Source of the DNA: an uncultured Nitrososphaerales archaeon
GTDB taxonomy: Archaea > Thermoproteota > Nitrososphaeria > Nitrososphaerales > Gagatemarchaeaceae
NCBI GenBank assembly: GCA_963706445.1
Contig: OY970160.1
Coordinates: 736,001-800,000 of the forward strand
Direction: 5' to 3'
Length of the DNA stretch: 64,000 bases
A program made the translations under genes and the position numbers. Each line of letters opens with the position of its first letter. Within the stretch, counting starts at the first letter, position 1. The notes beneath the pieces are model-generated. The model did no database searches. It had not been told where the DNA came from and was given only the letters and a program-made list of their open reading frames with translations. This document shows positions 20,598 through 52,523 of this stretch, in pieces.

Positions 20598-20734
20598 GGG
20601 TTAGATTGCAGTCCAACCGTTCCTTAAACATTCTGAGAGAAGTTTCTCCTGAAGAGTACGCGGTCGCCGGGAACACGAAGGCTCCAACCCCACAACGGAT
20701 TTATCACCACTACCTTCGAAGACGGTCGCATCAG

Positions 20735-22675
20735 ATGTCAGAGGGTAATAGGAGACTCGCGGCTATCATGTTCACCGACATTGTAGGATACACTGCGCTC
20801 TCTCAAAGGAACGAGAAGCTCGCGCTGCAGCTCCTCGAAATGCACCGCTCGCAGATGCGCCCTGTCTTCGCGAGGCACAAGGGGCGTGAGGTCAAGACCA
20901 TTGGGGACGCGTTCCTTGTCCAGTTCGAAAGCGCACTGGAAGCGGTGGAGTGCGCGGTGGAGATGCAGGAAGTAGTCCACAACCAAGGCGATAACTCCTC
21001 CGAGAAATTGCAGATGAAGGTAGGGATCCACGTTGGAGATGTCGTCCAAAGCAATCGAGATGTCTATGGCGACGCAGTCAACATCGCCTCGAGGATAGAG
21101 CCCATGGCGAAGGGGGGCGAAATCTGCATCTCACAGCAGGTCTATGACCAGGTCAGGAACAAGATTCCTTTCAAACTTGTCAAACTCGAACCGCACGAAC
21201 TGAAGAACGTGGCAGCACCGATAGACGTTTACAAGGTCGAGCTCCCATGGGAGGGACAGGCGATGAGCTTCAGACCCGTTCTGCTCCCGGCCGACAGGAT
21301 TGCCGTCCTTCCGTTCGTGAGCATGAGCATAGACCCTCAAGACGAGTTCTTCGCCGACGGCCTGACGGAGGAGCTGATAGGCAGCCTGGCCCTCATCAAG
21401 GGTCTCAAGGTAATCGCGAGGACTTCCGTCATGAACTACAAGAAGAAGGAGAAGAACGTCTCGGAGATAGGAAAGGAGTTGGGTGTCGGGACGGTCGTGG
21501 AGGGGAGCGTCCGAAAAGCGGCGAACAGGATAAGGGTCGCGGTGCAGGTAATCGACGTGAACACTGAAGAGCATCTCTGGGCGGATAAATACGACAGGGA
21601 CCTGGACGACATCTTCGCCGTTCAAAGTGAGATCGCAGACAGCGTTGCGAAGTCACTGCCCGTCAGCCTCCCAGCGGCCAAAGGTCCCGTCCCGAAGCAG
21701 AAGGAGACCGAGGACATCCAGGCCTACACGCTCTTCCTCCAGGGGCAGGCTCTGGTGTACGAGCCTGACGAGGCACCGCTAAGGCAATCATTGGGATTCT
21801 TCGTACAAGCCATCGAGAGAGACCCCTCATTTTCCAGGGCGTACGCTGGCATGGCAAGGTGCTACACAAATTTGGCCATCAGAGGGTCCATCTCCTGGTC
21901 CGAGGGGATCGAGCGCGGTAGAGCCGCCGCACAGAAAGCCCTCTCCGTCGGCCCCGACCTGGCAGAGGCGCACGCCCTGCTCGCTGATATTTCTAACATG
22001 GCCGACGACCCGATAATGGCGCAGGAGAAGGAGGTGAGGAGGGCGTTGGAGCTGAACCCCAACCTCGCCGACGCCCACCTCGCGCTCGGGGCTGTGGAAT
22101 CGATAAGGGGTAACCTGGGAGGCTTCGTCAGCAGCACCGAGACGGCATACCAACTTGATCCGCTTTCACCCCCGGTGATAAGGAGGCTAGGGGCGGCATA
22201 TTTCTTTGCAGGCCGAGTGCGAGACCTCCTCGAGCTCTTGAAGAGGACCCGCCACCTGGACCCAATCAACTATTACCGGCGGATGGCAGACATCTACTTC
22301 TCTAAGGGGAATCTTGCGGAGGCAGAGGCCATTGTGAACGAGTTGGAGAAGATTGCGCCAAACAGCGAATACGCCCACCTGAACCGCGGATACCTCGCCG
22401 CCCTCAAGGGGGACAGGACGACTGCCATGGAGATGATCGCGAAGCTTGACGAGACCCACGAAGCGGGATGGGCGAGGTCCTCGCTCGGGGGGTTCATCTT
22501 CTATGCCCTTGGGGACGTCGACAAGTTTTTCGAGTACATGTCCCGGGCGGCGGGGGACCACACACTCCGAGCTGAAGAGTTGATGCACTCCCCTGCCTTC
22601 TCCGAGGTCAGGAAGGATCCCCGGCTGAAACAACTTTTCAGCTCCGTCGGACTCACTCTCCCCCCAAGCACGTAA
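20735..22675 (+). CDS. Class III adenylate/guanylate cyclase + TolB-N-like domain + TPR repeats
   Basis: MFTDIVGYT, KTIGDA, GDAVNIASRIE catalytic motifs; IAVLPF...FADGLTEELI; TPRs. Confidence 0.9.
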   Translation: MSEGNRRLAAIMFTDIVGYTALSQRNEKLALQLLEMHRSQMRPVFARHKGREVKTIGDAFLVQFESALEAVECAVEMQEVVHNQGDNSSEKLQMKVGIHVGDVVQSNRDVYGDAVNIASRIEPMAKGGEICISQQVYDQVRNKIPFKLVKLEPHELKNVAAPIDVYKVELPWEGQAMSFRPVLLPADRIAVLPFVSMSIDPQDEFFADGLTEELIGSLALIKGLKVIARTSVMNYKKKEKNVSEIGKELGVGTVVEGSVRKAANRIRVAVQVIDVNTEEHLWADKYDRDLDDIFAVQSEIADSVAKSLPVSLPAAKGPVPKQKETEDIQAYTLFLQGQALVYEPDEAPLRQSLGFFVQAIERDPSFSRAYAGMARCYTNLAIRGSISWSEGIERGRAAAQKALSVGPDLAEAHALLADISNMADDPIMAQEKEVRRALELNPNLADAHLALGAVESIRGNLGGFVSSTETAYQLDPLSPPVIRRLGAAYFFAGRVRDLLELLKRTRHLDPINYYRRMADIYFSKGNLAEAEAIVNELEKIAPNSEYAHLNRGYLAALKGDRTTAMEMIAKLDETHEAGWARSSLGGFIFYALGDVDKFFEYMSRAAGDHTLRAEELMHSPAFSEVRKDPRLKQLFSSVGLTLPPST

Positions 22676-24024: not shown

Positions 24025-24039
24025 TCCACAATTCCTTGT

Positions 24040-24083
24040 GTTGGGGCGCCCACCTAGAATGCCAAGTCCCGGCCGGGGCGCCA
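24040..24083 (+). repeat. att-like dispersed repeat copy C
   Basis: GTTGGGGCGCCCACCTAGAATGCCAAGTCCCGGCCGGGGCGCCA; right half reads as T-loop/T-stem/acceptor stem/G/CCA. Confidence 0.85.
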
Positions 24084-24197
24084 AACTGTAGTTTGGGTCT
24101 GGATTTGCACACTAAACTGGCGCAGAAAGTGGATGCAGGACCTTCATCGTCACGAGAGCACTTAACAGCGAACAATGCTGAACGTCCTTCGGCGCAG

Positions 24198-25277
24198 ATG
24201 ACAGAATCCTCCGCTCGTTTGGGAGCCTCGAACCTTGCCGTCTCTCGTACAGAGAAGGCCAGGATCGCCTCAGTCTACTCCGCGATAGCCGCCGTCACCG
24301 TACTGTCGATGACTGCTGCCGCCGTCCTTGGTCGTATATCACCGGTTCTGAACGGCTTGGGAATCGTTGCCTACGTCCTTGGGCTGCGCCACGGCGTCGA
24401 CGCCGATCATATTGCTGCCATTGACAACACCACCAGGAAGCTGATGCAGCAGGGAAAGCCGAGGTTCACTGTAGGAAACTGGTTTTCGCTCGGCCATTCA
24501 ACAATAGTAGTCGGTCTGATTGCCGTCGTAGTCTTCGTCACCAGAAGTGTCATCGGACAAATCCCAGCGCTCCAGAGCGTAGGAGATATCGTCGGCACCC
24601 TGGTCTCAGGTGCCTTCTTGTTCATCATAGGGTTCATCAACCTACTGATCGTCTTCGGCGTCTACCGTCTGTTCAAGCAGGCGAAGTCGGGAGCGATGAA
24701 GGAAGAGCAGCTCGAAGAGTACATGCAGAAACGCGGTTTCCTCAATCGGTTGTTCCGACCGCTGTTCAGGTTCGTGAACGACGCATGGCAGATCTATCCG
24801 ATAGGCGTCCTCTTCGGGCTGGGCTTCGACACTGCGACAGAGGTCGCCCTGATCGCCATAAGCGTGGGCGTGGGGGCCTCCTCAACCATCCCTCTCTGGC
24901 AGATACTCGTGTTGCCGTTGCTTTTCACCTGTGGTATGGTCCTGACTGACACTACTGACGGTGTCACCATGAGGTTTGCCTACGGCTGGGCGTTCCTGAC
25001 CCCCCTGAAGAAAATCTACTACAATCTGGCCGTGACAGTGATGTCTGTGCTCGTGGCGTTCGTCATCGGCGGGATAGAGCTGGCCCAGGTGCTTGGCACC
25101 GAGCTCAAGCTGAGCTCTGGCTTCTGGATCTGGCTGGAGAACCTCGACTTCGAGACGATGGGGTTCGCGATCGTCGTCATCTTTGTGATAACATGGGCCT
25201 CTGCATACGGTGTCTGGAGATACAAGAAGTATGACCAGAATCCCTCAGGGTTCATTCGTCCTATTGTAGGGTCGTAA
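24198..25277 (+). CDS. NiCoT (HoxN/HupN/NixA) nickel/cobalt permease, copy 1
   Basis: RHGVDADHIAAID, FSLGHST and LGFDTATE signatures. Confidence 0.93.
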   Translation: MTESSARLGASNLAVSRTEKARIASVYSAIAAVTVLSMTAAAVLGRISPVLNGLGIVAYVLGLRHGVDADHIAAIDNTTRKLMQQGKPRFTVGNWFSLGHSTIVVGLIAVVVFVTRSVIGQIPALQSVGDIVGTLVSGAFLFIIGFINLLIVFGVYRLFKQAKSGAMKEEQLEEYMQKRGFLNRLFRPLFRFVNDAWQIYPIGVLFGLGFDTATEVALIAISVGVGASSTIPLWQILVLPLLFTCGMVLTDTTDGVTMRFAYGWAFLTPLKKIYYNLAVTVMSVLVAFVIGGIELAQVLGTELKLSSGFWIWLENLDFETMGFAIVVIFVITWASAYGVWRYKKYDQNPSGFIRPIVGS

Positions 25278-41085: not shown

Positions 41086-42906
41086 ATGGGAGAAAAGGGT
41101 AGCAAAGACTCGTCCTTAGGCCAGCGGGGCACCAACGGTCCCGACGAGGGCAAGCTCTCGCAACCCCTCAAATTCACTTCATCGCGAACAAAGCAACTCT
41201 TCGACTACTTGGTAGAATCATTTGTCGAGGACTACATGCGCAAGAAGTACGCCCAGGAGAGATCCGGATGGCGGAGTCTTGTTGACGCGGCCCGGAAGAT
41301 CGGGCTGCCTACCTCTGCGATGTACGGGAAGGGTGGCGGGCAGAGCCCTTTTGTCAGCGAGCTGATTCGACGAGGTATTGTCGAGCTGCGCGTATTTCCC
41401 GGTGAGCGCGGGCGCGGCGGGGGAATATCGAGGCTCAGAATCGCCTACGAAAAGAAACCCGTCCAGGGCTTGGTTGACAGGCTCGTCTGGGGCGACCTGC
41501 GAGGTGAGGAGCAAGTGCAACACTTGAACAGGCTGAAAGTGGCGGTGCTGCCGTTCACCAATATGAGCCCTGACCCTCGAGACGGATACTTCGCGGACGG
41601 GATGACAGAGGAGCTGATCTCAGCGGTCTCCAAGGTACGAGGGTTGAGCGTGATCTCACGAATCTCTGTCATGCACTACAAGGACCAGTCGATAGGGGCC
41701 CGGGAGATCGGTAGAGAACTGAAGACCGGCACGCTGCTCGAAGGCAGCGTCAGGAAGGCAGGCGATCGGGTCCGGGTCGCTGTCCAAATGATCAACGCCG
41801 AAACCGACGAGCATCTCTGGGCAGAGAACTACGACAGGACACTGGAGGACGTCTTCTCCATTCAAAGTGACATAGCCCAGAACGTAGCATCCATGCTCAA
41901 GGTCACCCTCCTTAATAGCGACCGGGAGAGGCTCGAGAAGGCCCCGACAAAAGACCCGGAAGCCCACGCCCTGTACCTGAAGGGGAGATCCCTTGGGATA
42001 CGTGGAACCGAGGCAGATCTGAAGAAAGCGGCCAAGTTCTATCGGAAGGCTATCCTGAAGGATCCCAAGTATGCCCTCGCGTACGCTTGGCTCTCCGATG
42101 CCACGTCTACATTGGGATTCTACGAGATGACGCCGCCCGTGAAGTCGTTCAAGAGAGCCGAAGAACTTGCCCGACGAGCGCTCGAAATAGACCCATCGCT
42201 CCCCGAAGCTCACATGTCATTGGGTGAAGTCCTTTTCAATCAATGGGATTTCAAAGGCTCAGAGGAAGAATTGAACCGTGCCTTGGAGCTGGACCCAAAC
42301 TCCGCGACGGTCCTGAGCGACAAAGCGAATCTAATGCTCTTCAGGGGGCGTCTCGACGAAGCCGCGACGCTCGCAAGGAGGGCGCTGGAACTTGACCCCC
42401 TATCACCGTCCATCCTCAATAATGCTGCAACAATTCTCCTCTATTCTGGCAAACTGGACGACGCCATAACCCTCTTCAAGAAGGTTCTCGAAATTGATCC
42501 CGAAGCGGCCTCTGCGCTGTGCAACCTCGGCGTGGCGTACGTCCAGAAGGGGATGTTAGACGAAGGCATAGATTCAATTCGTGATGCGATAAGGATGTCA
42601 AAGGGCTCCAGCCCGGGTCAGTGGAGCGACCTGGGACACGCGCTGAGCAAAGCTGGCAGGTTCGCAGAACTCAGGGAGCTTCTGATCGAAACCCTCGAAT
42701 GGCACGCGAAGAACCATCGTGGCGCCATCGCGCTCGTGTCACTCTACGCAAACCTTGGCGACAAGGACAAGGCCTTCGAGTGGCTGGAGAAGGCCATCGA
42801 AGAGCATTCAGGCTATCTCAATGGGATCCTTGCCGACTTCGCCTTCGAGGACCTCCGTTCGGACCCCCGGATGGAAGCAATCATAGCCCGTCTGGGCTTA
42901 AGATGA
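41086..42906 (+). CDS. TolB-N-like/TPR protein with an N-terminal HTH-like domain in place of the cyclase
   Basis: VAVLPF..FADGMTEELI + TPRs as in the cyclases; N-terminal WRSLVDAARKIGLPTSAMYG...GERGRGG. Confidence 0.75.
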   Translation: MGEKGSKDSSLGQRGTNGPDEGKLSQPLKFTSSRTKQLFDYLVESFVEDYMRKKYAQERSGWRSLVDAARKIGLPTSAMYGKGGGQSPFVSELIRRGIVELRVFPGERGRGGGISRLRIAYEKKPVQGLVDRLVWGDLRGEEQVQHLNRLKVAVLPFTNMSPDPRDGYFADGMTEELISAVSKVRGLSVISRISVMHYKDQSIGAREIGRELKTGTLLEGSVRKAGDRVRVAVQMINAETDEHLWAENYDRTLEDVFSIQSDIAQNVASMLKVTLLNSDRERLEKAPTKDPEAHALYLKGRSLGIRGTEADLKKAAKFYRKAILKDPKYALAYAWLSDATSTLGFYEMTPPVKSFKRAEELARRALEIDPSLPEAHMSLGEVLFNQWDFKGSEEELNRALELDPNSATVLSDKANLMLFRGRLDEAATLARRALELDPLSPSILNNAATILLYSGKLDDAITLFKKVLEIDPEAASALCNLGVAYVQKGMLDEGIDSIRDAIRMSKGSSPGQWSDLGHALSKAGRFAELRELLIETLEWHAKNHRGAIALVSLYANLGDKDKAFEWLEKAIEEHSGYLNGILADFAFEDLRSDPRMEAIIARLGLR

Positions 42907-44565: not shown

Positions 44566-44973
44566 GTGGGCTCAACCCTACTCCTTCAGCCCATGATGTA
44601 CTTCGTTCCTTTCCGACTAGCCGCTCCCCAACGGGGATCAGAAGGAGACTCAGGTCAGACACCGATTCCAGCCGTTCTTGATCCTTCGTTCAAACGCATA
44701 ATGGTCTACGTCTTCGTTGCTAGCCGAGGGGGACAAAACAGGGCACGAATCGCGGAGATGCTTCGAGGAGAGCCGTCGAACCTCAACAGGATCTCAGAGG
44801 GCCTCAAGCTCGACTACAAGACGGTCCGTCATCACATCGGGGTTCTAGAGGAGAACGGAGTCATCATCTCGAATGCAAAGGGGGCTTACGGTGCGGTTTA
44901 TTTCCTGACCCCTTATTTTGAAAAATACTTCGAAATCGTCAAGGAAATGTGGGTTCGATTTGGGCATAGTTAG
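44566..44973 (+). CDS. ArsR-like winged-helix regulator
   Basis: SRGGQNRARI...LKLDYKTVRHHIGVLEENG...YGAVYFLT; true start probably downstream of 44566. Confidence 0.85.
   Translation: MGSTLLLQPMMYFVPFRLAAPQRGSEGDSGQTPIPAVLDPSFKRIMVYVFVASRGGQNRARIAEMLRGEPSNLNRISEGLKLDYKTVRHHIGVLEENGVIISNAKGAYGAVYFLTPYFEKYFEIVKEMWVRFGHS
44947..44968 (+). promoter_or_regulatory. Tandem 11-bp operator O1 (inside the 3' end of the HTH gene)
   Basis: ATGTGGGTTCG-ATTTGGGCATA; ends 33 nt before ATG 45001. Confidence 0.7.
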
Positions 44974-45000
44974 ATATAGCTTGAGAGGGTCGAATAGCTG

Positions 45001-45312
45001 ATGGCGTTCGACATCTTCTGGATGAACGTCGCTGCAGGTTTCGCGTTCGTCAACATCGCCTTCGTGGCTTTGTTGATAGGCCTCTACTTCAGGAGCTGGC
45101 AGAAGGTGCGTTCCTCGCTGAGCCTCGCACTGATTCTCTTCGCTGTATTCTTCCTGGTTCAGAATGGGGTAATCGTAGTCTTCTGGTACGTCCTCTACGG
45201 TCTTGGCCCTCCCTTCCAGTCGGTCGTGGTTTCAGCGGCCCCCTACCTTGCTGCAATCAACGCCCTTGAGACGCTTGCGCTCGCGAACCTAGTTAGGATC
45301 ACTTGGAGCTAG
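45001..45312 (+). CDS. Three-TM membrane protein, probable partner of the ArsR-like HTH
   Basis: Hydrophobic; Y..W.KVRS...LILFA.FFLVQN pattern; adjacent to the HTH gene. Confidence 0.75.
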   Translation: MAFDIFWMNVAAGFAFVNIAFVALLIGLYFRSWQKVRSSLSLALILFAVFFLVQNGVIVVFWYVLYGLGPPFQSVVVSAAPYLAAINALETLALANLVRITWS

Positions 45313-45365
45313 TCCAAGCCAGGCTGGCCATGCCCCAGCCCGGTTCGGCAGATCCCGTCAACCCG

Positions 45366-45387
45366 ATTTGGGTCGGATTTGGGCATA
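45366..45387 (+). promoter_or_regulatory. Tandem 11-bp operator O2
   Basis: ATTTGGGTCGG-ATTTGGGCATA; ends 33 nt before ATG 45420. Confidence 0.75.
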
Positions 45388-45419: not shown

Positions 45420-45599
45420 ATGACCGGATATTCAGCCGACCTGAAGCAAGTATGTGGCTGTGCCTGGGCAGCTACCGGTGCCACTTCGGACGAAGTGACA
45501 AACAAAGTGGCGTCGCATGCGATGCAGGCTCACGGGATGGATGAGGTCCCAGCCGAAGTAGCCCAGAAGCTTCAGGCAGCCATGAGACCGACGATGTAA
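45420..45599 (+). CDS. DUF1059-like small metal-binding protein (59 aa, not in the ORF track)
   Basis: MTGYSADLKQVCGCAWAATGATSDEVTNKVASHAMQAHGMDEVPAEVAQKLQAAMRPTM; CxC plus HxxxxH. Confidence 0.8.
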   Translation: MTGYSADLKQVCGCAWAATGATSDEVTNKVASHAMQAHGMDEVPAEVAQKLQAAMRPTM

Positions 45600-45637: not shown

Positions 45638-45783
45638 GATCAGACGATCTTGCAATCCATCAAAAGGAAGCTTTGTCGAAGGAGAACAAGCCGTAGGTGA
45701 TTTTAGGCGAATTGGAGGGCACCCTTGAAGACAACAGCTGCGCCGAAACAAGAAGGTCGAGGCAGAGGGCGATTCATTTGCCG

Positions 45784-45805
45784 ATTTGGGCATAATTCTG
45801 GCATA
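45784..45805 (+). promoter_or_regulatory. Tandem 11-bp operator O3
   Basis: ATTTGGGCATA-ATTCTGGCATA; ends 35 nt before ATG 45840. Confidence 0.75.
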
Positions 45806-45839: not shown

Positions 45840-46163
45840 ATGAATGACATAACAGATGAAAGTCGGCGCAAGTTTCTGAAGGTTGTGGCGCTTGGAGGGG
45901 TAGCTGTCGCTGCAACACCGCTCTTGATGAATGCCAAGATCCTGGGGTTGGGGTCAGCTTCCGTAAGCCCCGCTTTGGGGACAGGAACGGCATACGCACC
46001 TGTTTCAACTAAAACGGGTGGCGCCGGAGGGGACGATTCCACTTTGGTAGTCGTAGTGAAGAACGGCCAGGTCACAGGCTACAGGGGTGCGCAGAAGGTC
46101 GCCATGAATGACCTTGCGCTCGGATCCCAACTTCACACCTCCTTCGAGTCATACCTGGAGTGA
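45840..46163 (+). CDS. Small twin-arginine (Tat) signal protein
   Basis: Consensus SRRKFLK plus h-region; small C-terminal beta domain. Confidence 0.85.
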   Translation: MNDITDESRRKFLKVVALGGVAVAATPLLMNAKILGLGSASVSPALGTGTAYAPVSTKTGGAGGDDSTLVVVVKNGQVTGYRGAQKVAMNDLALGSQLHTSFESYLE

Positions 46164-46169
46164 TTGGAA

Positions 46170-47627
46170 ATGACATCCCACAGAGAGGCGCCGTCGATCT
46201 CTAAGGACCCGGTTGCGGACAATACAGATCTGTATGCGTTCGTCAGTCCCGACAAGCCGAACACAGTGACAATCCTGGCCAACTACATACCGCTTGAAGA
46301 GCCAGCTGGAGGCCCGAATTTCAATTCGTTCGGGGACGACGTACTCTACGAGATCAAGATCGACAATGACGCCGACGCCAAACCAGACATCACCTATCAG
46401 TTCACATTCAGGACTACGGTCGCAAACAAGAACACCTTCCTTTACAACACCGGTCCAATAGCAACGCTCGATTCGCCGAACTGGAACGTCCGTCAGTTCT
46501 ACAAGGTGACCGAAGTCAAGGGAGATGGCATCGCAAAGGTGCTTGGTGACAACCTTCCCTGCCCGCCGGTCAACATAGGTCCCCGGTCAACGCCCAGCTA
46601 TGCGAGCTTGGCCGACGCCGCGATCAAGGCCCTTTCCGACGGATCTTCGGTGTTCGCCGGCGCACGCGCGGACGGGTTCTACGTAGACCTTGGGTCGATC
46701 TTTGACCTGGGGACACTAAGGCCGCTCGAGTCCTACCACCTGATTCCAGTCCCGCCGAACGCTGCGGGGGTGAACGGACTTAAGGGATACAACTGCCACA
46801 GTATCGCTCTTCAGGTGCCCATCTCCAAACTGACGTCGGACGGTTCGGTACCAACCGACCCTAGCAAGCAAGAGGCTGTCCTTGGTTTCTGGGCTACAGC
46901 TAGTCGGCGAGCGGTCAGGGTTCCAGACGGAGCCTCTTCGAGCCAGGCATTCGAAGAAGCGGGGCCCTTCGTTCAGGTGTCCAGACTCGGAAACCCTCTG
47001 ATCAACGAGGTCGTAATTCCGGTCGGTACGAAGGACCAGTGGAACACTGTACAACCCTCGATGGACTCGGCCTTCGCCCCCTACTATCTAGTCCCCGAGC
47101 TCTCCAAGCTTCTGCCGGTACTGTACCCGGGCGTCTTCCCCAATCTGGCCGGCCTCTCAGGCTCAGCCGCCCCCAGAAACGACCTCGCAGCCATTCTTCT
47201 GACGGGTATCCCGAGCGGGATAATCACCGGGTTCCAGAACTTCACTGGTGCGACTCAGGCAGACATGCTCAGGCTGAACGTCGCCATCCCTCCAAACACA
47301 ACCGCGGGGGCCAACCCGCCTTTCAACAGCTCGAGCAGGCAGGGGATCCTTGGCGGAGACCTGGCGGGCTATCCCAACGGCCGACGGGTGTTCGACAACG
47401 TCGTGGCCATAGAGCTCCGAGCCATAGCGGGTCTCACATACCCCCTTGTCATGCCCAGCTACACCCCTGACGCGGCCGCAGGAATTTTGGCCGACACCGA
47501 CACCCCAGATCCAGGTGTCACAAAGTTCTCTGACGCCCAGAACGATGTCACCAACGCGCCATACCTGGGAAGCTTTCCATACCTCGCGACTCCCTACCAG
47601 GGTTACGAGCATGAGCACGACCCCTAG
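46170..47627 (+). CDS. DUF4331 family protein without a signal peptide
   Basis: SHREAP...DNTDLYAF, QVSRLGNPLINEV, DMLRLN and GYPNGRR motifs; SD GGAGTGA before ATG 46170. Confidence 0.88.
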   Translation: MTSHREAPSISKDPVADNTDLYAFVSPDKPNTVTILANYIPLEEPAGGPNFNSFGDDVLYEIKIDNDADAKPDITYQFTFRTTVANKNTFLYNTGPIATLDSPNWNVRQFYKVTEVKGDGIAKVLGDNLPCPPVNIGPRSTPSYASLADAAIKALSDGSSVFAGARADGFYVDLGSIFDLGTLRPLESYHLIPVPPNAAGVNGLKGYNCHSIALQVPISKLTSDGSVPTDPSKQEAVLGFWATASRRAVRVPDGASSSQAFEEAGPFVQVSRLGNPLINEVVIPVGTKDQWNTVQPSMDSAFAPYYLVPELSKLLPVLYPGVFPNLAGLSGSAAPRNDLAAILLTGIPSGIITGFQNFTGATQADMLRLNVAIPPNTTAGANPPFNSSSRQGILGGDLAGYPNGRRVFDNVVAIELRAIAGLTYPLVMPSYTPDAAAGILADTDTPDPGVTKFSDAQNDVTNAPYLGSFPYLATPYQGYEHEHDP

Positions 47628-47657
47628 GCCGGTTCCGGACTTCGTAGGTTTCCATCC

Positions 47658-48695
47658 ATGAAGCTGGGACTGCCAATGGGGGACAGGATGGCGGTCCTAG
47701 GAATCTACGCAGCCATCGGGGCAGCCACGGCAGCCAGCCTGATGATAGCAGGGATCGTCGGGCGCTCGTTCGCCTTGATTCTGGGATTGAGCATGACGAC
47801 CTACATCCTCGGAGTCAGGCACGGGCTCGATGCGGACCATATTGCAGCCATAGACAACGTCACCAGGAGGCTGATGAACGGGGGGAAGCGCCCCATGACG
47901 GTGGGGACCTGGTTCTCGCTCGGGCACTCTACCATAGTCTTCGCTCTCACAGCTGGGATCACGATCGGGGCGCGCCAGGTCCTAGCCGCCGAGCCCGAGA
48001 TAGCCGGAATGGGATCTATCCTGGGTACGGGCATATCGGCCGCCTTTCTCTGGCTCATCGGGACAGTCAACCTCCTTTCTGCCATCCAAATCTACCGAAC
48101 GCTGAGGGCTGTACACAGCGGGAAGAATCAGGGCGACTCCGCTGATATTGCCATCCAGGGCGGGGGCTTCTTCAGCAGGAGGATGGGCCGGCTCTTCGAC
48201 CTGGTTCGGAAGCCGTGGCAGATATACCCCATAGGCATCCTGTTTGGGCTCGGGTTCGACACCGCGACCGAGGTCGCGCTAGTCTCGCTCAGTGTGCTCG
48301 CCGCGGTGGGGGGCTCGATCCCGGTCTGGACCGTGCTCATATTGCCAGCTACCTTCAGCTGCGGGATGGTGCTGGTCGATACTACCGACGGTGTGATGAT
48401 GACTTTTGCCTACGAATGGGCGTTTCTCCAACCTATGCGCAAGATATTCTACAATCTGACCTTGACCGTAGGGTCAATCGTCGTAGCCTTCCTGATAGGG
48501 GGGGTCGAGGTGCTCCAGGTCCTCTCACAGGGGCTGGGCCTTAGGGGCTTTTTCTGGACCTGGATGGGGGGAATCGACTTTGAAACCCTGGGGCTGTTCG
48601 TAGTTGCGGCGTTCGGGGCCACATGGGTCGTATCGTTGTCCTTGTACCGGTTCAGGCGCTACGGAAGGACCCTGGCGTTGCCCGCCGGCCCGTGA
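47658..48695 (+). CDS. NiCoT nickel/cobalt permease, copy 2
   Basis: RHGLDADHIAAID, FSLGHST and LGFDTATE signatures. Confidence 0.93.
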   Translation: MKLGLPMGDRMAVLGIYAAIGAATAASLMIAGIVGRSFALILGLSMTTYILGVRHGLDADHIAAIDNVTRRLMNGGKRPMTVGTWFSLGHSTIVFALTAGITIGARQVLAAEPEIAGMGSILGTGISAAFLWLIGTVNLLSAIQIYRTLRAVHSGKNQGDSADIAIQGGGFFSRRMGRLFDLVRKPWQIYPIGILFGLGFDTATEVALVSLSVLAAVGGSIPVWTVLILPATFSCGMVLVDTTDGVMMTFAYEWAFLQPMRKIFYNLTLTVGSIVVAFLIGGVEVLQVLSQGLGLRGFFWTWMGGIDFETLGLFVVAAFGATWVVSLSLYRFRRYGRTLALPAGP

Positions 48696-48717
48696 AGATC
48701 CGTTTTCGCCGATGGCC

Positions 48718-49140
48718 CTAGCTGTTCGCGTGAAATATTCCTGAGCTTACTTCCTCGGTGACCTTGAGCCCTCCAGGTGGCACATTGAAGGGGCAGATGA
48801 TCCCCCGGCTGTATTTGACCGCTCCCTCGACCTCGATGACTGGGAACTCATCCTCGGTTGCCCGGGCGGCATGGGACCGGACTTCCTGTTCCGTCTGACA
48901 CAGCCTATCCAAGTTCTTGAGCAGGTCCTCCCCTTTTTCCGTGTAAATCCGACGTATCTTGGCCTCTCCCTCAAGCTGTTTTGACACCTCAGAATCGTAC
49001 AGAAAGACCCTGTCTCCCTCTTCGATCAGATCCCAATCGTCGCTCTTCTCCCCTACGTAAAGAACCCTATGATGAACGATGTTGTGCACCGCTTCGCGGC
49101 CCATGGGAATTATTATCCCTGTCACTCCGTTTTTCCCCAT
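48718..49140 (-). CDS. PUA/ASCH-like (DUF365-like) protein
   Basis: GDRVFLYDS...LEGEAKI...KY pattern. Confidence 0.6.
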   Translation of the reverse strand: MGKNGVTGIIIPMGREAVHNIVHHRVLYVGEKSDDWDLIEEGDRVFLYDSEVSKQLEGEAKIRRIYTEKGEDLLKNLDRLCQTEQEVRSHAARATEDEFPVIEVEGAVKYSRGIICPFNVPPGGLKVTEEVSSGIFHANS

Positions 49141-49198
49141 TTGTTGCTCGCCATCAATGGACGACTTTTGGCACTTTCGGAAGGGGTCCGTGAGAATT

Positions 49199-49492
49199 CT
49201 AGGAGAATTTCTTTACGCGCTGCACGATTTCGGCCGAAATCTGATCTGAGGTCTTTCCTTCGGTGCTTATCCCAAGCTGCTTCGCTGTATTGCGAAGCGC
49301 GTCAGGGGAACCAACTTCCGCCTCCGGGTGACCTGCCACAGGCGCTGCGGTTTCCTTCCCACCCATCTCGAATTCGTTCTTCGCCCTCCCTAAACTCCTT
49401 GCCAGTTGAGGGATCTTTGTAGGGCCCCACATCAAGACAACCACAGCGATTGCCCCTATGATCAACAGCTGAACCGGGTCTGCGAATACCAT
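49199..49492 (-). CDS. tatA: Twin-arginine translocase TatA/E subunit
   Basis: TM + WGPTKIPQLARSLGRAKNEF; archaeal-type tail LGISTEGKT. Confidence 0.9.
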   Translation of the reverse strand: MVFADPVQLLIIGAIAVVVLMWGPTKIPQLARSLGRAKNEFEMGGKETAAPVAGHPEAEVGSPDALRNTAKQLGISTEGKTSDQISAEIVQRVKKFS

Positions 49493-49525: not shown

Positions 49526-49547
49526 TATGCCAGATTTTGGCCCAAAT
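49526..49547 (-). promoter_or_regulatory. Tandem 11-bp operator O4
   Basis: Minus strand ATTTGGGCCAA-AATCTGGCATA; ends 34 nt before tatA ATG 49492. Confidence 0.72.
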
Positions 49548-49570
49548 CCCGGACGGACTTCCCCGGCTAG

Positions 49571-49849: not shown

Positions 49850-51376
49850 CTATCGCATATCGGGGGGCAGCTCTCCTGCCTCCAAGTCATCCTCTGTTAT
49901 TCCTCGGCACTTGGCATATGCCGCCCTATAGCCACGGAGTAGGTCACGGCTTTCTCCGAGGACGTATTCCAAAGTATCCAATCGATTCGAGTCAATCAGC
50001 GAGCTGTTCTTGTATCGTCCAGTGTTCTTATCGTAGCCCATGGCTTCGTTTGCTGCATCCCAATCCCGTTTTTGCTTGAGGTACACATCTAGGGCTTTCA
50101 GATAGGCTGCTTCCGCTTCGGCGCACGGATCCGGTGCGGCCGGATTCGGAGGCGGGGGTTCGAGGGGGGGAGCAGTCTTTGGAGCCGCCGCCGGAGGGGG
50201 GATAGGCACCGCGGGAGTAGGGGGTGCAGCTGGGGTCGGAATGCCTGGCGGCTCTTCTGGCGGTGCAGTCGCCGCTATCTCAGCCTCCAGCTTCTCCATG
50301 AACGTGTCTTCTTCCAACGGCGGTTGACCAGGAAGATACTCCGGCTCCAACCCTAGGTCATCTCCTGGGGGCTTTCCTGACAGCGGAGGTGGACCAGGAG
50401 GCTTGGGCGGGGGGTTAGCCGCTCCCTCCTTCTCGTCGTCCTCATCCCCTCCAGAGAAATACCAGTACAGGAATATTGCAGCGCCGATACCCACAAACGC
50501 AACCAAGAGCTCCCAGGCCAAGGCACCATTAGTGGTCGTGCCGCTGCTTGCTGTTGAACTACTGGAGCTCGAAGATGGGCTCGTCGTCGTATTACTGCTA
50601 GGAGAAGTGGTCGATACTACAGATGTCGTCGTGTTCGTAGCTTGACTGACCGTGATATTGGCGATGGGAGAAGTGACTGTCATAGGCAGACTGGCGTTGT
50701 CGGTCACCTGGAGCTCGAAATGCCAGATCCCTGCAGTGGAAAGATTGCCTGTTGGAACTGTCGGTGGGGGTGTAGCTGTGCAAGCGAAGGGGTTCCCCAT
50801 GACCACAAAGGCGTTGAGTTCGGGAGCCCACACAAGCCACTGGCATGCGTAGGGTGGTGTCCCTCCGCTGAACGGCGTCGTAGTGGTGAGGGTGACTGAC
50901 TGGCCGGCGTTGACCGTAGGCTGAGAGACGGAGATCACGGGAGCCACGAGGGCGGGGTTGACGATCGCCGTGGCGTTGGCCAAGGCGGTACCCAGAGAGC
51001 CCGCGTTCAACAGCGCGCAGAATGGAACAGTAGCTGGGGTTTGAGATGGCGTCAGCGGGGGGGTTGTGAAATTGTCTGACGGTCCAGACTGGAGTGGTGG
51101 TGTGGGGCACCCCGGCGTCCCGAAGCCGGAGGACCAGGTTATCGTATAGGGGAATCCTGATGGCACTCCGCTTACTTGGGCTCTGAAATGAGCGGACCAC
51201 CCGTAGTCGACCCTTTGATTGGGGACTGTGAGTGTGACACCACCCTGGGCGTGCGCTACCGGGGTGGCGACTGTGAAGACAAGGACCAGCAACGAACTGC
51301 CGAGAAGCAAACTAGAAACAAATGGCCCAAATCGGACGTCCGTTGGCCGCACGTTCACAATGCGACAGGACTGCAT
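49850..51376 (-). CDS. Single-pass membrane protein: two Ig/PKD-like domains, S/T stalk, TM, Pro-rich tail and terminal helical hairpin
   Basis: Signal ending AHA; GGTPPY..QW..ELQVTD motif; TM WELLVAFVG...; Pro-rich region. Confidence 0.7.
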   Translation of the reverse strand: MQSCRIVNVRPTDVRFGPFVSSLLLGSSLLVLVFTVATPVAHAQGGVTLTVPNQRVDYGWSAHFRAQVSGVPSGFPYTITWSSGFGTPGCPTPPLQSGPSDNFTTPPLTPSQTPATVPFCALLNAGSLGTALANATAIVNPALVAPVISVSQPTVNAGQSVTLTTTTPFSGGTPPYACQWLVWAPELNAFVVMGNPFACTATPPPTVPTGNLSTAGIWHFELQVTDNASLPMTVTSPIANITVSQATNTTTSVVSTTSPSSNTTTSPSSSSSSSTASSGTTTNGALAWELLVAFVGIGAAIFLYWYFSGGDEDDEKEGAANPPPKPPGPPPLSGKPPGDDLGLEPEYLPGQPPLEEDTFMEKLEAEIAATAPPEEPPGIPTPAAPPTPAVPIPPPAAAPKTAPPLEPPPPNPAAPDPCAEAEAAYLKALDVYLKQKRDWDAANEAMGYDKNTGRYKNSSLIDSNRLDTLEYVLGESRDLLRGYRAAYAKCRGITEDDLEAGELPPDMR

Positions 51377-51608: not shown

Positions 51609-52523
51609 CTATATTCTACTTGCAATTTCATTGAAAACTGCAGCCAAATCGGTACCCGCCGTTGTAACCGCCGCGATTATGACTACTGCAATAAGTCCCG
51701 CTACGAGGCCATACTCGATTTGTGTTACTAGTGGCGAAACAGTCGCAGACGCACTGTCGAGGAGGAAGTTATCGAAGCCGTTGCCACTCGCTGCATTCCC
51801 GATGAGTATGTTGCTGGAAGTGCTGATGAGGAAGAAGCCAACCCCGTTGTTGCTGTTCGCTCTGTTCCCGATGAGCGTGTTGCTGGACGAATAACCGAGG
51901 ACAAAGCCATCAAAGCTGTTGCTGTTCGCTGTGTTCCCGATGAGCGTGTTGCTGGAAGTGCTCACGAAGAGGAAGCCAGCCACGTTGTTGTCGCTCGCTG
52001 TGTTCCCGATTAGTGTGTTGCTGGAGGAGAGCACGAGGAAGAAGCCAACCTGGCCGTTACCATTCGCTGTGTTCCTGATGAGTACGCTGCTGGGAGAGCT
52101 GACGATGATGAAGCCGCCCCCATTACCATTCGCTGTATTCCCGATGAGTGTGTTGGAAGAGCTGCCGAGGCCAAAGCCGTCATAGAATCCCGTAACATTG
52201 CAGTTCATGACCGTGACTCTTGCTATCCCGGTAATCTCACTGATCCCTATGCTGTCAGCAGCGCCGGAGCCGCCTATGGTCTGCCCAGCGCAGTTGAGGG
52301 TTATACCATTAGCGCCTATGATGAGGCCGTTCCCTGGGCAGGGACCAATGCTGGCGTTCAGTGTAGTGCTGGTCGTAATTGTGGAGCCACACATTGGCGC
52401 CGGCGCAGCGTGGACAGGGACAGGCAAGAAAGCAAGGGTTGAACCAAGAATCATCGCGAGAAGCAAAATCGCATAGCGGGCCTTCCGAGTGCCCTTACCC
52501 ATTAGGGTTGCCGTGGCCTGCAC
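51609..52523 (-). CDS. Secreted right-handed beta-helix (NosD/CASH-type repeats) ending in an Flp-pilin-like segment
   Basis: ~23-aa repeats SSSNTLIGNTANxNxxxGF; C-terminus IEYGLVAGLIAVVIIAAVTTAGTDLAAVFNEIA. Confidence 0.82.
   Translation of the reverse strand: MQATATLMGKGTRKARYAILLLAMILGSTLAFLPVPVHAAPAPMCGSTITTSTTLNASIGPCPGNGLIIGANGITLNCAGQTIGGSGAADSIGISEITGIARVTVMNCNVTGFYDGFGLGSSSNTLIGNTANGNGGGFIIVSSPSSVLIRNTANGNGQVGFFLVLSSSNTLIGNTASDNNVAGFLFVSTSSNTLIGNTANSNSFDGFVLGYSSSNTLIGNRANSNNGVGFFLISTSSNILIGNAASGNGFDNFLLDSASATVSPLVTQIEYGLVAGLIAVVIIAAVTTAGTDLAAVFNEIASRI

What the first reader, a model, noticed from the sequence alone, without database searches (positions are those of the whole stretch)
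45840..49492. Candidate nickel-dependent, Tat-hitchhiking DUF4331 system
Seen: an operon of a small protein with a consensus Tat signal (SRRKFLK), a DUF4331 protein with no signal peptide and a NiCoT permease, plus a co-regulated extra tatA. DUF4331 starts M-T-S-H and ends HEHDP. Knowledge: Met is normally removed before Thr, which would give NH2-Thr-Ser-His, an ATCUN (Xaa-Xaa-His) Ni/Cu-binding motif. Tat can export signal-less subunits bound to a signal-bearing partner, as in NiFe hydrogenases. Inference: DUF4331 (function unknown) is a Ni or Cu metalloprotein loaded in the cytoplasm and exported folded by its small partner, with its own metal importer, a possible chaperone (DUF1059) and a TatA.
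Basis: partly seen in the sequence, partly recalled or inferred. Interest (0 to 1): 0.82.

Follow-up and report, generated by a model that had tools for sequence, protein, structure and literature searches.

The report
Tat-escorted DUF4331 nickel-linked export module
A large, very widespread protein of unknown function (DUF4331) has no export signal here and is probably carried out of the cell by a tiny signal-bearing partner; its conserved Thr/Ser-Ser-His tip and its own nickel permease make a new nickel-handling system testable.

Summary
The window encodes a 107-aa protein with a consensus twin-arginine signal, a leaderless DUF4331 protein (starts MTSHREAP, ends HEHDP), a NiCoT permease and a second tatA.

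I add a 23-bp operator. It occurs four times in the 1.8-Mb genome, only at this locus, 32-34 nt before four start codons.

- **Escort link:** an escort homologue flanks 78 of 79 evaluable leaderless DUF4331 genes, in archaea and several bacterial phyla. It flanks 0 of 52 signal-bearing ones.
- **N-terminus:** in both classes the predicted mature end is X-X-His.
- **Neighbours:** of 55 long leaderless loci, 16 hold NiCoT, 15 TatA/TatC and 21 an ECF sigma factor. Three of four proteobacterial loci hold a HupE/UreJ-2 permease.

Tat hitchhiking and a metal-binding tip are therefore well supported by comparison. Nickel is the likeliest metal.

Cytoplasmic metal loading is not supported as a family trait, because most relatives gain their free end only after export. 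DUF1059 is specific to this genome. The complex model gave no verdict.

No paper in the searched library mentions DUF4331, and no solved relative or known fold was found. This scan has reported the same module repeatedly on other genomes.

The parts
44566..44973 (+). ArsR-type winged-helix regulator; candidate regulator of the local regulon (inferred)
   Evidence: Pfam HTH_20 and HTH_5 hits below their cut-offs. Homologues lie at the same position in 4 Bathyarchaeota loci, and the one in L007 scores HTH_5 at 34.9 bits.
44946..44968 (+). operator copy 1 (AATGTGGGTTCGATTTGGGCATA), ending 32 nt before the mem103 ATG
45001..45312 (+). small membrane protein (103 aa, no family), conserved next to the regulator in Bathyarchaeota loci
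   Evidence: 5 loci
45365..45387 (+). operator copy 2 (GATTTGGGTCGGATTTGGGCATA), ending 32 nt before the DUF1059 ATG
45420..45599 (+). DUF1059 protein (59 aa), co-regulated here but not conserved in related loci
   Evidence: PF06348 E 9e-13; 0 of 80 loci
45783..45805 (+). operator copy 3 (GATTTGGGCATAATTCTGGCATA), ending 34 nt before the escort ATG
45840..46163 (+). escort: twin-arginine signal (SRRKFLK plus hydrophobic region), disordered linker, and a 40-aa three-strand-plus-helix domain (residues about 66-107)
   Evidence: TIGR01409; family alignment A2; AF2 pLDDT above 90 for residues 66-107
46170..47627 (+). leaderless DUF4331 (485 aa): M-T-S-H-R-E-A-P start, HEHDP end
   Evidence: PF14224, 460 bits; start fixed by 116 of 120 homologues; AF2 pTM 0.84
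47658..48695 (+). NiCoT (HoxN/NixA/NicT-type) nickel/cobalt permease, last gene of the operon
   Evidence: PF03824, 277 bits; NicT and TIGR00802 hits below their equivalog/subfamily cut-offs; RHGLDADH signature in the translation
48718..49140 (-). 140-aa protein downstream of tatA on the same strand (58-nt gap); DUF365/ASCH-like by language-model features only
49199..49492 (-). second, locus-specific TatA
   Evidence: PF02416, 31.2 bits; the housekeeping tatA-tatC pair is elsewhere
49526..49548 (-). operator copy 4 (GATTTGGGCCAAAATCTGGCATA), ending 33 nt before the tatA start

Best explanation
The locus is one regulon that makes and exports a two-protein module.

1. The 107-aa escort carries the only export signal, a twin-arginine signal. 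Its 40-aa C-terminal domain binds the folded, leaderless DUF4331 protein in the cytoplasm.
2. The pair crosses the membrane through the Tat translocase by the hitchhiker mode, helped by the locus's own TatA.
3. Methionine removal leaves DUF4331 with a flexible free end, NH2-Thr-Ser-His. This is an ATCUN-type site that binds Ni(II).
4. Outside the cell, DUF4331 works with the co-transcribed NiCoT permease in nickel acquisition: it captures the metal and hands it over.
5. A 23-bp operator at four promoters, probably read by the adjacent ArsR-type regulator, switches the membrane protein, DUF1059, the escort-DUF4331-NiCoT operon and tatA together.

Shown: gene content, conservation of the start, the escort/leaderless correlation, enrichment of the neighbours, and the operator.

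Inferred: the physical complex, Tat export, Met removal, metal binding, nickel as the metal, and the direction of metal flow.
For: Escort and cargo:
- An escort HMM hits next to 78 of 79 evaluable leaderless DUF4331 genes. The loci come from Bathyarchaeota, Thermoplasmata, Chloroflexota, Actinomycetota, Dormibacterota and Aminicenantes.
- The median gap from escort stop to DUF4331 start is 11 nt.
- None of 52 signal-bearing loci has an escort.

The family is extracytoplasmic elsewhere:
- 87 of 115 50%-cluster representatives carry signal peptides.
- Bacteroidota forms carry T9SS sorting tails.
- Two representatives have a directly fused Tat signal.

Tat link:
- TatA/TatC lie in 15 of 55 long loci.
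- In the Bathyarchaeota genome G005 the only TatC lies beside the pair.
- Here an extra TatA shares the operator.

Metal link:
- The mature end is X-X-His in every class.
- The N-terminal 16 residues are disordered in the model.
- NiCoT lies in 16 of 55 long leaderless loci, upstream in some and downstream in others.
- An unrelated nickel-type permease, HupE/UreJ-2, follows DUF4331 in 3 of 4 proteobacterial loci. Two of the four also hold a TonB-dependent receptor.
- ATCUN sites bind Cu(II) and Ni(II), and NiCoT carries Ni and Co (established knowledge). Nickel is the overlap.
Against: - There is no direct evidence for a complex, for export or for metal binding.
- NiCoT is absent from about 70% of the leaderless loci.
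- DUF4331 is unusually conserved for a simple metal shuttle: 55-67% identity between archaea and bacteria, with about 100 invariant residues. That would suit an enzyme better.
- Residues 4-8 (HREAP) are invariant beyond what an ATCUN site needs.
- N-terminal acetylation, common in archaea after Met removal (established knowledge), would block an ATCUN site.
- The genome also has HypA and a NiFe-hydrogenase-like gene, so nickel import has another cytoplasmic client.
Confidence: 0.5

Rival explanations
1. DUF4331 is a nickel (or copper) metalloenzyme. It is loaded with metal in the cytoplasm, where NiCoT supplies the nickel and Met removal creates the binding end. It is then exported already folded and metallated on the escort.
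For: - NiCoT imports into the cytoplasm, and nickel permeases are classically encoded with their client enzymes such as hydrogenase and urease (established knowledge).
- Only leaderless forms have a free N-terminus before export, and these are the ones that use Tat.
- The very high conservation suits an enzyme.
- A C-terminal HxHD is present in 76 of 120 close homologues.
Against: - Most of the family has cleavable signal peptides, few of which show an RR pair, so X-X-His arises only outside the cell.
- In proteobacteria the neighbours are a TonB-dependent receptor and an inner-membrane HupE/UreJ-2 permease, which move metal inward past a periplasmic protein.
- No catalytic fold or motif was recognised.
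Confidence: 0.25
2. DUF4331 is an exported surface protein whose job is not metal handling, for example a binding or hydrolytic protein. The conserved S-S-H-R-E-A-P end would then be structural or a maturation signal, and nickel permeases would be only occasional neighbours.
For: - NiCoT is missing from about 70% of leaderless loci.
- The core is a generic beta-sandwich. The best PDB match is a starch-binding protein, Z 7.5, within the noise range.
- Invariance of residues 4-8 goes beyond ATCUN needs.
Against: - Two unrelated nickel-type permease families (NiCoT and HupE/UreJ-2) and TonB-dependent receptors recur next to DUF4331 in different phyla and gene orders.
- His stays exactly third after three different ways of making the N-terminus: Met removal, and cleavage of signal peptides with and without a twin-arginine motif.
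Confidence: 0.17
3. The leaderless DUF4331 stays in the cytoplasm, and the small Tat protein is an independent exported or membrane-anchored protein that merely shares the operon.
For: No physical evidence for a complex exists.
Against: - The escort is found when DUF4331 lacks its own signal and not when it has one: 78/79 against 0/52 loci.
- The rest of the family is extracytoplasmic.
- Dedicated Tat genes sit in the clusters.
Confidence: 0.05

Closest known systems
Gamma ('hitchhiker') subunit and catalytic alpha subunit of FAD-glucose dehydrogenase of Burkholderia cepacia (PMC6719666)
   Same: A small protein with a twin-arginine signal is needed for folding and secretion of a large signal-less partner, with which it forms a stable complex. 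That the two genes are adjacent is from my own knowledge.
   Different: There is no sequence or fold relation: gamma is a five-helix, 121-aa mature protein, while this escort is a 40-aa three-strand-plus-helix domain. The cargo there is a known FAD/3Fe-4S enzyme; here it has no known function or cofactor.
Streptomyces MelC1/MelC2, the tyrosinase and its Tat-signal 'caddie' (own knowledge; MelC1 is mentioned in PMC4273604)
   Same: An upstream small Tat-signal protein escorts a leaderless metalloprotein out of the cell and is tied to its metal centre.
   Different: MelC1 inserts copper into a type-3 copper enzyme. Pfam found no family on the escort, so no MelC1 family either. The metal site here would be an N-terminal X-X-His, and the linked transporter is a Ni/Co permease.
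Classical Tat hitchhiker enzymes: [NiFe]-hydrogenase small/large subunits, DmsAB, PaoABC (PMC4273604)
   Same: One subunit carries the RR signal for a folded hetero-oligomer.
   Different: In those, the signal-bearing subunit is itself a cofactor-bearing enzyme subunit. Here it is a minimal docking domain on a flexible linker.
ATCUN (NH2-X-X-His) Cu(II)/Ni(II) sites, e.g. serum albumin (own knowledge)
   Same: A free amine, two backbone amides and His3. Positions 1-3 fit the motif in all DUF4331 classes.
   Different: Binding is untested. The following R-E-A-P is also invariant, which no ATCUN rule explains.
N-terminal-His metal-capture proteins found by 'signal-strapping': DUF4198 nickel-binding protein and Ang-1/Ang-2 'anglerase' domains fused to HupE/UreJ-2 permeases (PMC12537917)
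   Same: An extracytoplasmic protein whose processed N-terminus chelates a transition metal next to a nickel-type permease. Proteins with that architecture (signal peptide, N-terminal His, HupE/UreJ-2) lie one gene beyond Sec-type DUF4331, after a TPR protein, in 3 of 4 proteobacterial loci.
   Different: Those use His1, not His3. They are fused to the permease and are small beta-sandwiches. The paper does not mention DUF4331.

Membership tests
Pfam DUF4331 (PF14224) | Profile match above the gathering score over the full domain | tested here: met
   460.5 bits against a cut-off of 27, profile positions 2-421 of 421
Tat hitchhiker pair | One partner carries a twin-arginine signal | tested here: met
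   SRRKFLK plus a hydrophobic region; TIGR01409 21.7 bits against 16.7; RR invariant in 69 family members
Tat hitchhiker pair | The cargo has no signal of its own although its family is exported | tested here: met
   Starts at MTSH; 87 of 115 representatives of the family carry signal peptides
Tat hitchhiker pair | The two proteins form a complex before export | tested here: inconclusive
   Only genomic correlation supports it: 78/79 against 0/52 loci. The structure-based test gave no verdict.
Tat hitchhiker pair | Export of the cargo depends on the partner's RR motif and on TatC | not testable with these tools
   Needs fractionation or reporter assays with an RR-to-KK escort and a tat mutant.
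ATCUN motif | His at position 3 of the mature chain, no Pro at position 2 | tested here: met
   T-S-H after Met removal. [ST]-S-H in 116 of 120 close homologues, and [SA]-[SND]-H after the predicted cleavage site in signal-bearing forms.
ATCUN motif | Free, unmodified alpha-amine (Met removed, not acetylated) | not testable with these tools
   Thr at position 2 permits Met removal (established rule). Acetylation state is unknown.
ATCUN motif | Square-planar Cu(II)/Ni(II) binding | not testable with these tools
   Needs metal analysis or spectroscopy.
NiCoT permeases (PF03824; TC 2.A.52) | Profile match and the H-X4-D-H signature in TM2 | tested here: met
   277.4 bits against 27.7; RHGLDADH in the translation
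NicT equivalog (NF052500) / TIGR00802 subfamily | Score above the curated cut-off | tested here: not met
   337.8 against 450, and 311.4 against 333.05. It is a family member, but no named orthologue.
TatA/E (PF02416) | Profile match above the cut-off | tested here: met
   31.2 bits against 21. NCBIfam subfamily cut-offs are not reached.
MelC1 caddie family | Sequence homology of the escort to MelC1 | tested here: not met
   The Pfam scan of the escort returned no family. The likeness is functional only.

The most novel reading that the evidence does not exclude
DUF4331 is the founding member of an undescribed class of extracytoplasmic nickel proteins. It would be either a capture protein that feeds NiCoT and HupE/UreJ-type permeases, or a new nickel enzyme. 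Its essential free X-X-His end is produced by three different routes. In one clade this forced the invention of a dedicated minimal Tat escort, so that the protein leaves the cell folded and possibly already metallated. That clade has spread between Archaea and Bacteria together with its own Tat components.
Probability: 0.4. Interest if true: 0.85.

Novelty: new variant of a known kind. Interest (0 to 1): 0.74.

Why it matters
DUF4331 is a very large family: 5,456 clusters at 50% identity. It was found in about one in six of the Acidobacteriota and Actinomycetota genomes sampled. No paper in the searched library mentions it, no solved relative exists, and no known fold was recognised.

The comparative pattern turns it into a concrete, cheap set of experiments: a metal-binding tip, an escort only where the signal is missing, and recurring nickel-type permeases.

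If confirmed, it would add three things:
- a new extracytoplasmic component to nickel (or copper) homeostasis in soil bacteria and archaea;
- the smallest known dedicated Tat hitchhiker escort;
- an explanation for extra Tat genes in many genomes.

It would also give NiCoT permeases their first known extracytoplasmic partner.

Tried and rejected
- **Complex prediction of DUF4331 with escort residues 60-107:** score 0.03, no verdict. This is no evidence either way.
- **PDB sequence search:** no relative of DUF4331 found.
- **Foldseek against PDB:** nothing at E <= 0.001.
- **VIA-align wide search:** best Z 7.5 (Sas6, 197 residues, rmsd 4.6), within the range the tool calls common. I make no fold assignment.
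- **Escort domain against PDB:** best Z 2.7, nothing usable.
- **ESM Atlas by shape:** only other DUF4331 clusters.
- **Direct phmmer of the window's escort against the 80 loci:** no hits. Kinship became visible only by alignment and HMM.
- **Natural escort-DUF4331 fusions that could be folded as one chain:** none. Only directly fused Tat signals were found.
- **Literature searches for DUF4331 and PF14224:** no papers. DUF1059 gave two unrelated mentions.
- **The operator motif in related Bathyarchaeota loci:** not found, so it is specific to this genome.
- **Whether NiCoT has no other client in this genome:** rejected. HypA and a NiFe-hydrogenase-like gene exist. CODH was not found, and urease gave only a marginal match.
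- **TTG at 46164 as the start:** rejected in favour of the ATG at 46170, because the homologues start at M-[ST]-S-H and a GGAGTGAT Shine-Dalgarno-like element precedes the ATG.
Full report
**What is in the window**

The stretch 44.5-49.6 kb holds these genes, in order:
- an ArsR-type HTH gene (44566-44973, +);
- a 103-aa membrane protein with no family (45001-45312, +);
- a DUF1059 protein (45420-45599, +);
- a 107-aa protein with the consensus twin-arginine motif SRRKFLK (45840-46163, +);
- a DUF4331 protein (46170-47627, +; PF14224, E 9e-138);
- a NiCoT permease (47658-48695, +; PF03824, E 2e-82, with the RHGLDADH signature);
- on the other strand, tatA (49492-49199) followed by a 140-aa gene (49140-48718).

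The gaps escort-DUF4331 (6 nt) and DUF4331-NiCoT (30 nt) fit one operon. A GGAGTGAT element precedes the DUF4331 ATG.

The genome is a single 1.82-Mb contig. It has one DUF4331 gene, its tatA-tatC pair at 958.5 kb and a second NiCoT inside this window at about 24.2-25.3 kb. The nearest loci are from soil Bathyarchaeota, so the host is probably an archaeon of that kind.

**A local regulon**

GATTTGGGCATA occurs exactly three times in the genome, all at this locus. Extended to its 23-bp two-part direct-repeat form, the motif occurs four times in 1,817,757 bp and nowhere else. The copies lie at 44946, 45365 and 45783 on the + strand and at 49548 on the - strand.

Each copy ends 32-34 nt before a start codon: the membrane protein, DUF1059, the escort and tatA. 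The neighbouring ArsR-type protein is the obvious candidate regulator, which is an inference. The motif is not present in related Bathyarchaeota loci.

**The start of DUF4331**

Of the 120 closest homologues (60-85% identity), 116 begin M-[ST]-S-H-R-E-[AG]-P at residue 1. The ATG at 46170 is therefore the start, and the protein has no signal peptide. S3, H4, R5, E6, A7 and P8 are invariant in a 40-sequence alignment. HxHD lies in the last 14 residues of 76 of the 120.

**The escort is a family, tied to the leaderless state**

I fetched 80 genome loci encoding the closest relatives. They come from Bathyarchaeota, Thermoplasmata, Chloroflexota, Actinomycetota, Dormibacterota, Aminicenantes and one alphaproteobacterial bin.

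- A motif scan found a small upstream ORF with [ST]RRxFL plus a hydrophobic stretch in 69 of 74 loci.
- After the starts were refined, the proteins align as one family (A2). The architecture is an RR signal, a variable linker and a conserved domain of about 35 aa. The window's protein fits it at the near-invariant G83, D91 and L94.
- An HMM of this family hits next to DUF4331 in 78 of the 80 loci. One of the two misses is cut by a contig end. Nine of the 78 were not used to build the model. In a few loci the gene is downstream or divergent.
- The median gap from escort stop to DUF4331 start is 11 nt.
- AlphaFold2 folds residues 66-107 as three strands plus a helix with pLDDT above 90. Residues 18-61 are disordered.

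As a negative control I sampled genomes evenly from three phyla.

| Phylum | Genomes with a DUF4331 match | E-value threshold |
|---|---|---|
| Acidobacteriota | 26 of 151 | <= 1e-30 |
| Actinomycetota | 25 of 151 | <= 1e-30 |
| Proteobacteria | 8 of 251 | <= 0.001 (default) |

The first two tallies include one and five unpublished genomes (G279; G423, G453, G493, G525, G553). I left their loci out of everything that follows.

All 52 evaluable loci encode signal-bearing DUF4331, and none has an escort within 1.5 kb. The contrast is 78/79 against 0/52.

**The N-terminal tip**

Among 50%-identity cluster representatives (5,456 at E <= 0.001), 115 of the 150 best retain the N-terminus. Of these, 28 are leaderless MSSH. 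The other 87 have a signal peptide ending in a small residue, directly followed by S-S-H (less often A-S-H or T-S-H). Divergent acidobacterial forms keep A|SSH or A|ADH. Two representatives carry directly fused Tat signals followed by S-N-H or S-S-H.

So the N-terminus is made in three ways: Met removal, cleavage of a signal peptide without an RR motif, and cleavage of a Tat signal. In all three His is the third residue.

This is the ATCUN pattern for Cu(II)/Ni(II), which is established chemistry; binding itself is untested. The first 16 residues are disordered in the model.

**Neighbours**

Counts in the 55 leaderless loci of at least 15 kb:

| Neighbour | Loci (of 55) |
|---|---|
| NiCoT | 16 |
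| TatA and/or TatC | 15 |
| ECF sigma factor | 21 |
| RskA-type anti-sigma factor | 11 |

- The NiCoT-positive loci span several phyla, and the permease is upstream in some and downstream in others. The link is therefore not one inherited arrangement.
- In the Bathyarchaeota genome G005 the only TatC lies beside the pair.
- In 3 of 4 proteobacterial Sec-type loci the order is DUF4331, then a TPR protein, then a protein with a signal peptide, an N-terminal His and a HupE/UreJ-2 permease domain. An ECF sigma/anti-sigma pair lies alongside. Two of the four loci also hold a TonB-dependent receptor.
- That permease architecture is the one described as 'anglerase'-HupE/UreJ-2 by Franco Cairo et al. 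2025 (PMC12537917). The paper does not mention DUF4331.
- Bacteroidota DUF4331 clusters carry T9SS sorting tails.

**Structure**

The DUF4331 model has pTM 0.84 and mean pLDDT 76. It is a beta-sandwich core with a helical part. No convincing solved relative was found.

Two short insertions, at about residues 326-330 and 349-353, are present in the leaderless clade and absent from signal-bearing relatives. I propose them as the escort's docking site, purely as an inference.

**Reading**

Tat hitchhiking is strongly supported by comparison, and I put it near 0.8.

A functional metal-binding tip is well supported, at about 0.65. Nickel is the best guess, because it is the only metal shared by ATCUN chemistry (Cu, Ni) and NiCoT substrates (Ni, Co).

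Two readings remain for what the protein does.
- **Capture outside the cell, with hand-over to the permease.** I prefer this one. Most relatives obtain the free end only after export, and in proteobacteria the neighbours form an inward transport chain.
It is favoured by the extreme conservation of the protein and by the fact that only the leaderless forms have a free end before export.

The genome has another nickel client, HypA plus a NiFe-hydrogenase-like gene, so the presence of NiCoT does not decide between the two.

DUF1059 shares the operator here but is absent from all 80 related loci. A chaperone role for it is unsupported.

**Novelty**

No paper in the searched library mentions DUF4331 or PF14224.

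The closest known systems are functional analogues, not relatives:
- the FAD-glucose dehydrogenase gamma 'hitchhiker' subunit (PMC6719666);
- MelC1/MelC2;
- the hydrogenase and PaoABC hitchhikers (PMC4273604);
- N-terminal-His metal-capture proteins (PMC12537917).

This scan has reported the same module many times on other genomes. I re-tested its main claims here and they held.

Noticed in passing
window 24036-25277 (+): A second NiCoT/NicO permease (PF03824, 321.7 bits), standing alone between repeat-rich surface proteins and a PLP-type enzyme gene. The genome therefore has two NiCoT genes, both in this window.
   Followed up: partly
window 44946-44968, 45365-45387, 45783-45805 (+) and 49526-49548 (-): A 23-bp two-part direct repeat unique to this locus in the whole genome. 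Each copy ends 32-34 nt before a start codon, which suggests leaderless or very short-leader transcripts under one regulator.
   Followed up: yes
window 44566-45312 (+); L007 6706-7445: An ArsR-type HTH gene followed by a small three-helix membrane protein is conserved next to the escort-DUF4331 pair in Bathyarchaeota loci. It may be the archaeal counterpart of the ECF sigma/anti-sigma pairs found in the bacterial loci.
   Followed up: partly
window 48718-49140 (-): A 140-aa protein, probably co-transcribed with the extra tatA. It has no Pfam or NCBIfam hit. Language-model features point to DUF365/ASCH-like (PUA-like) clusters.
   Followed up: partly
G000:C1 about 1177132-1179620 (outside the window): A NiFe-hydrogenase-like large-subunit ORF (412 aa; only the first 70 profile positions match) with HypA close by. 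It is a possible cytoplasmic nickel client and could also be a complex-I-type subunit.
   Followed up: no
window 20606-22675 and 41086-42906 (+): Two large paralogous proteins share a central 'AVLPF...DGxxEELI...VxxQxID' segment followed by TPR-like repeats. One has an adenylate-cyclase-like N-terminus. Neither was analysed.
   Followed up: no
window 49850-51376 (-) and 51609-52523 (-): A 508-aa secreted or anchored protein with Ser/Thr- and Pro-rich stretches, and a 304-aa protein made of 'SNTLIGNTA(N/S)GN' repeats (parallel beta-helix-like), lie just beyond tatA.
   Followed up: no
L117, L119, L120 (proteobacterial loci): Sec-type DUF4331 is followed by a TPR protein and a HupE/UreJ-2 permease whose predicted mature N-terminus begins with His (AWA|HK..., ALA|HK...). 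This is the 'anglerase' architecture of PMC12537917.
   Followed up: partly
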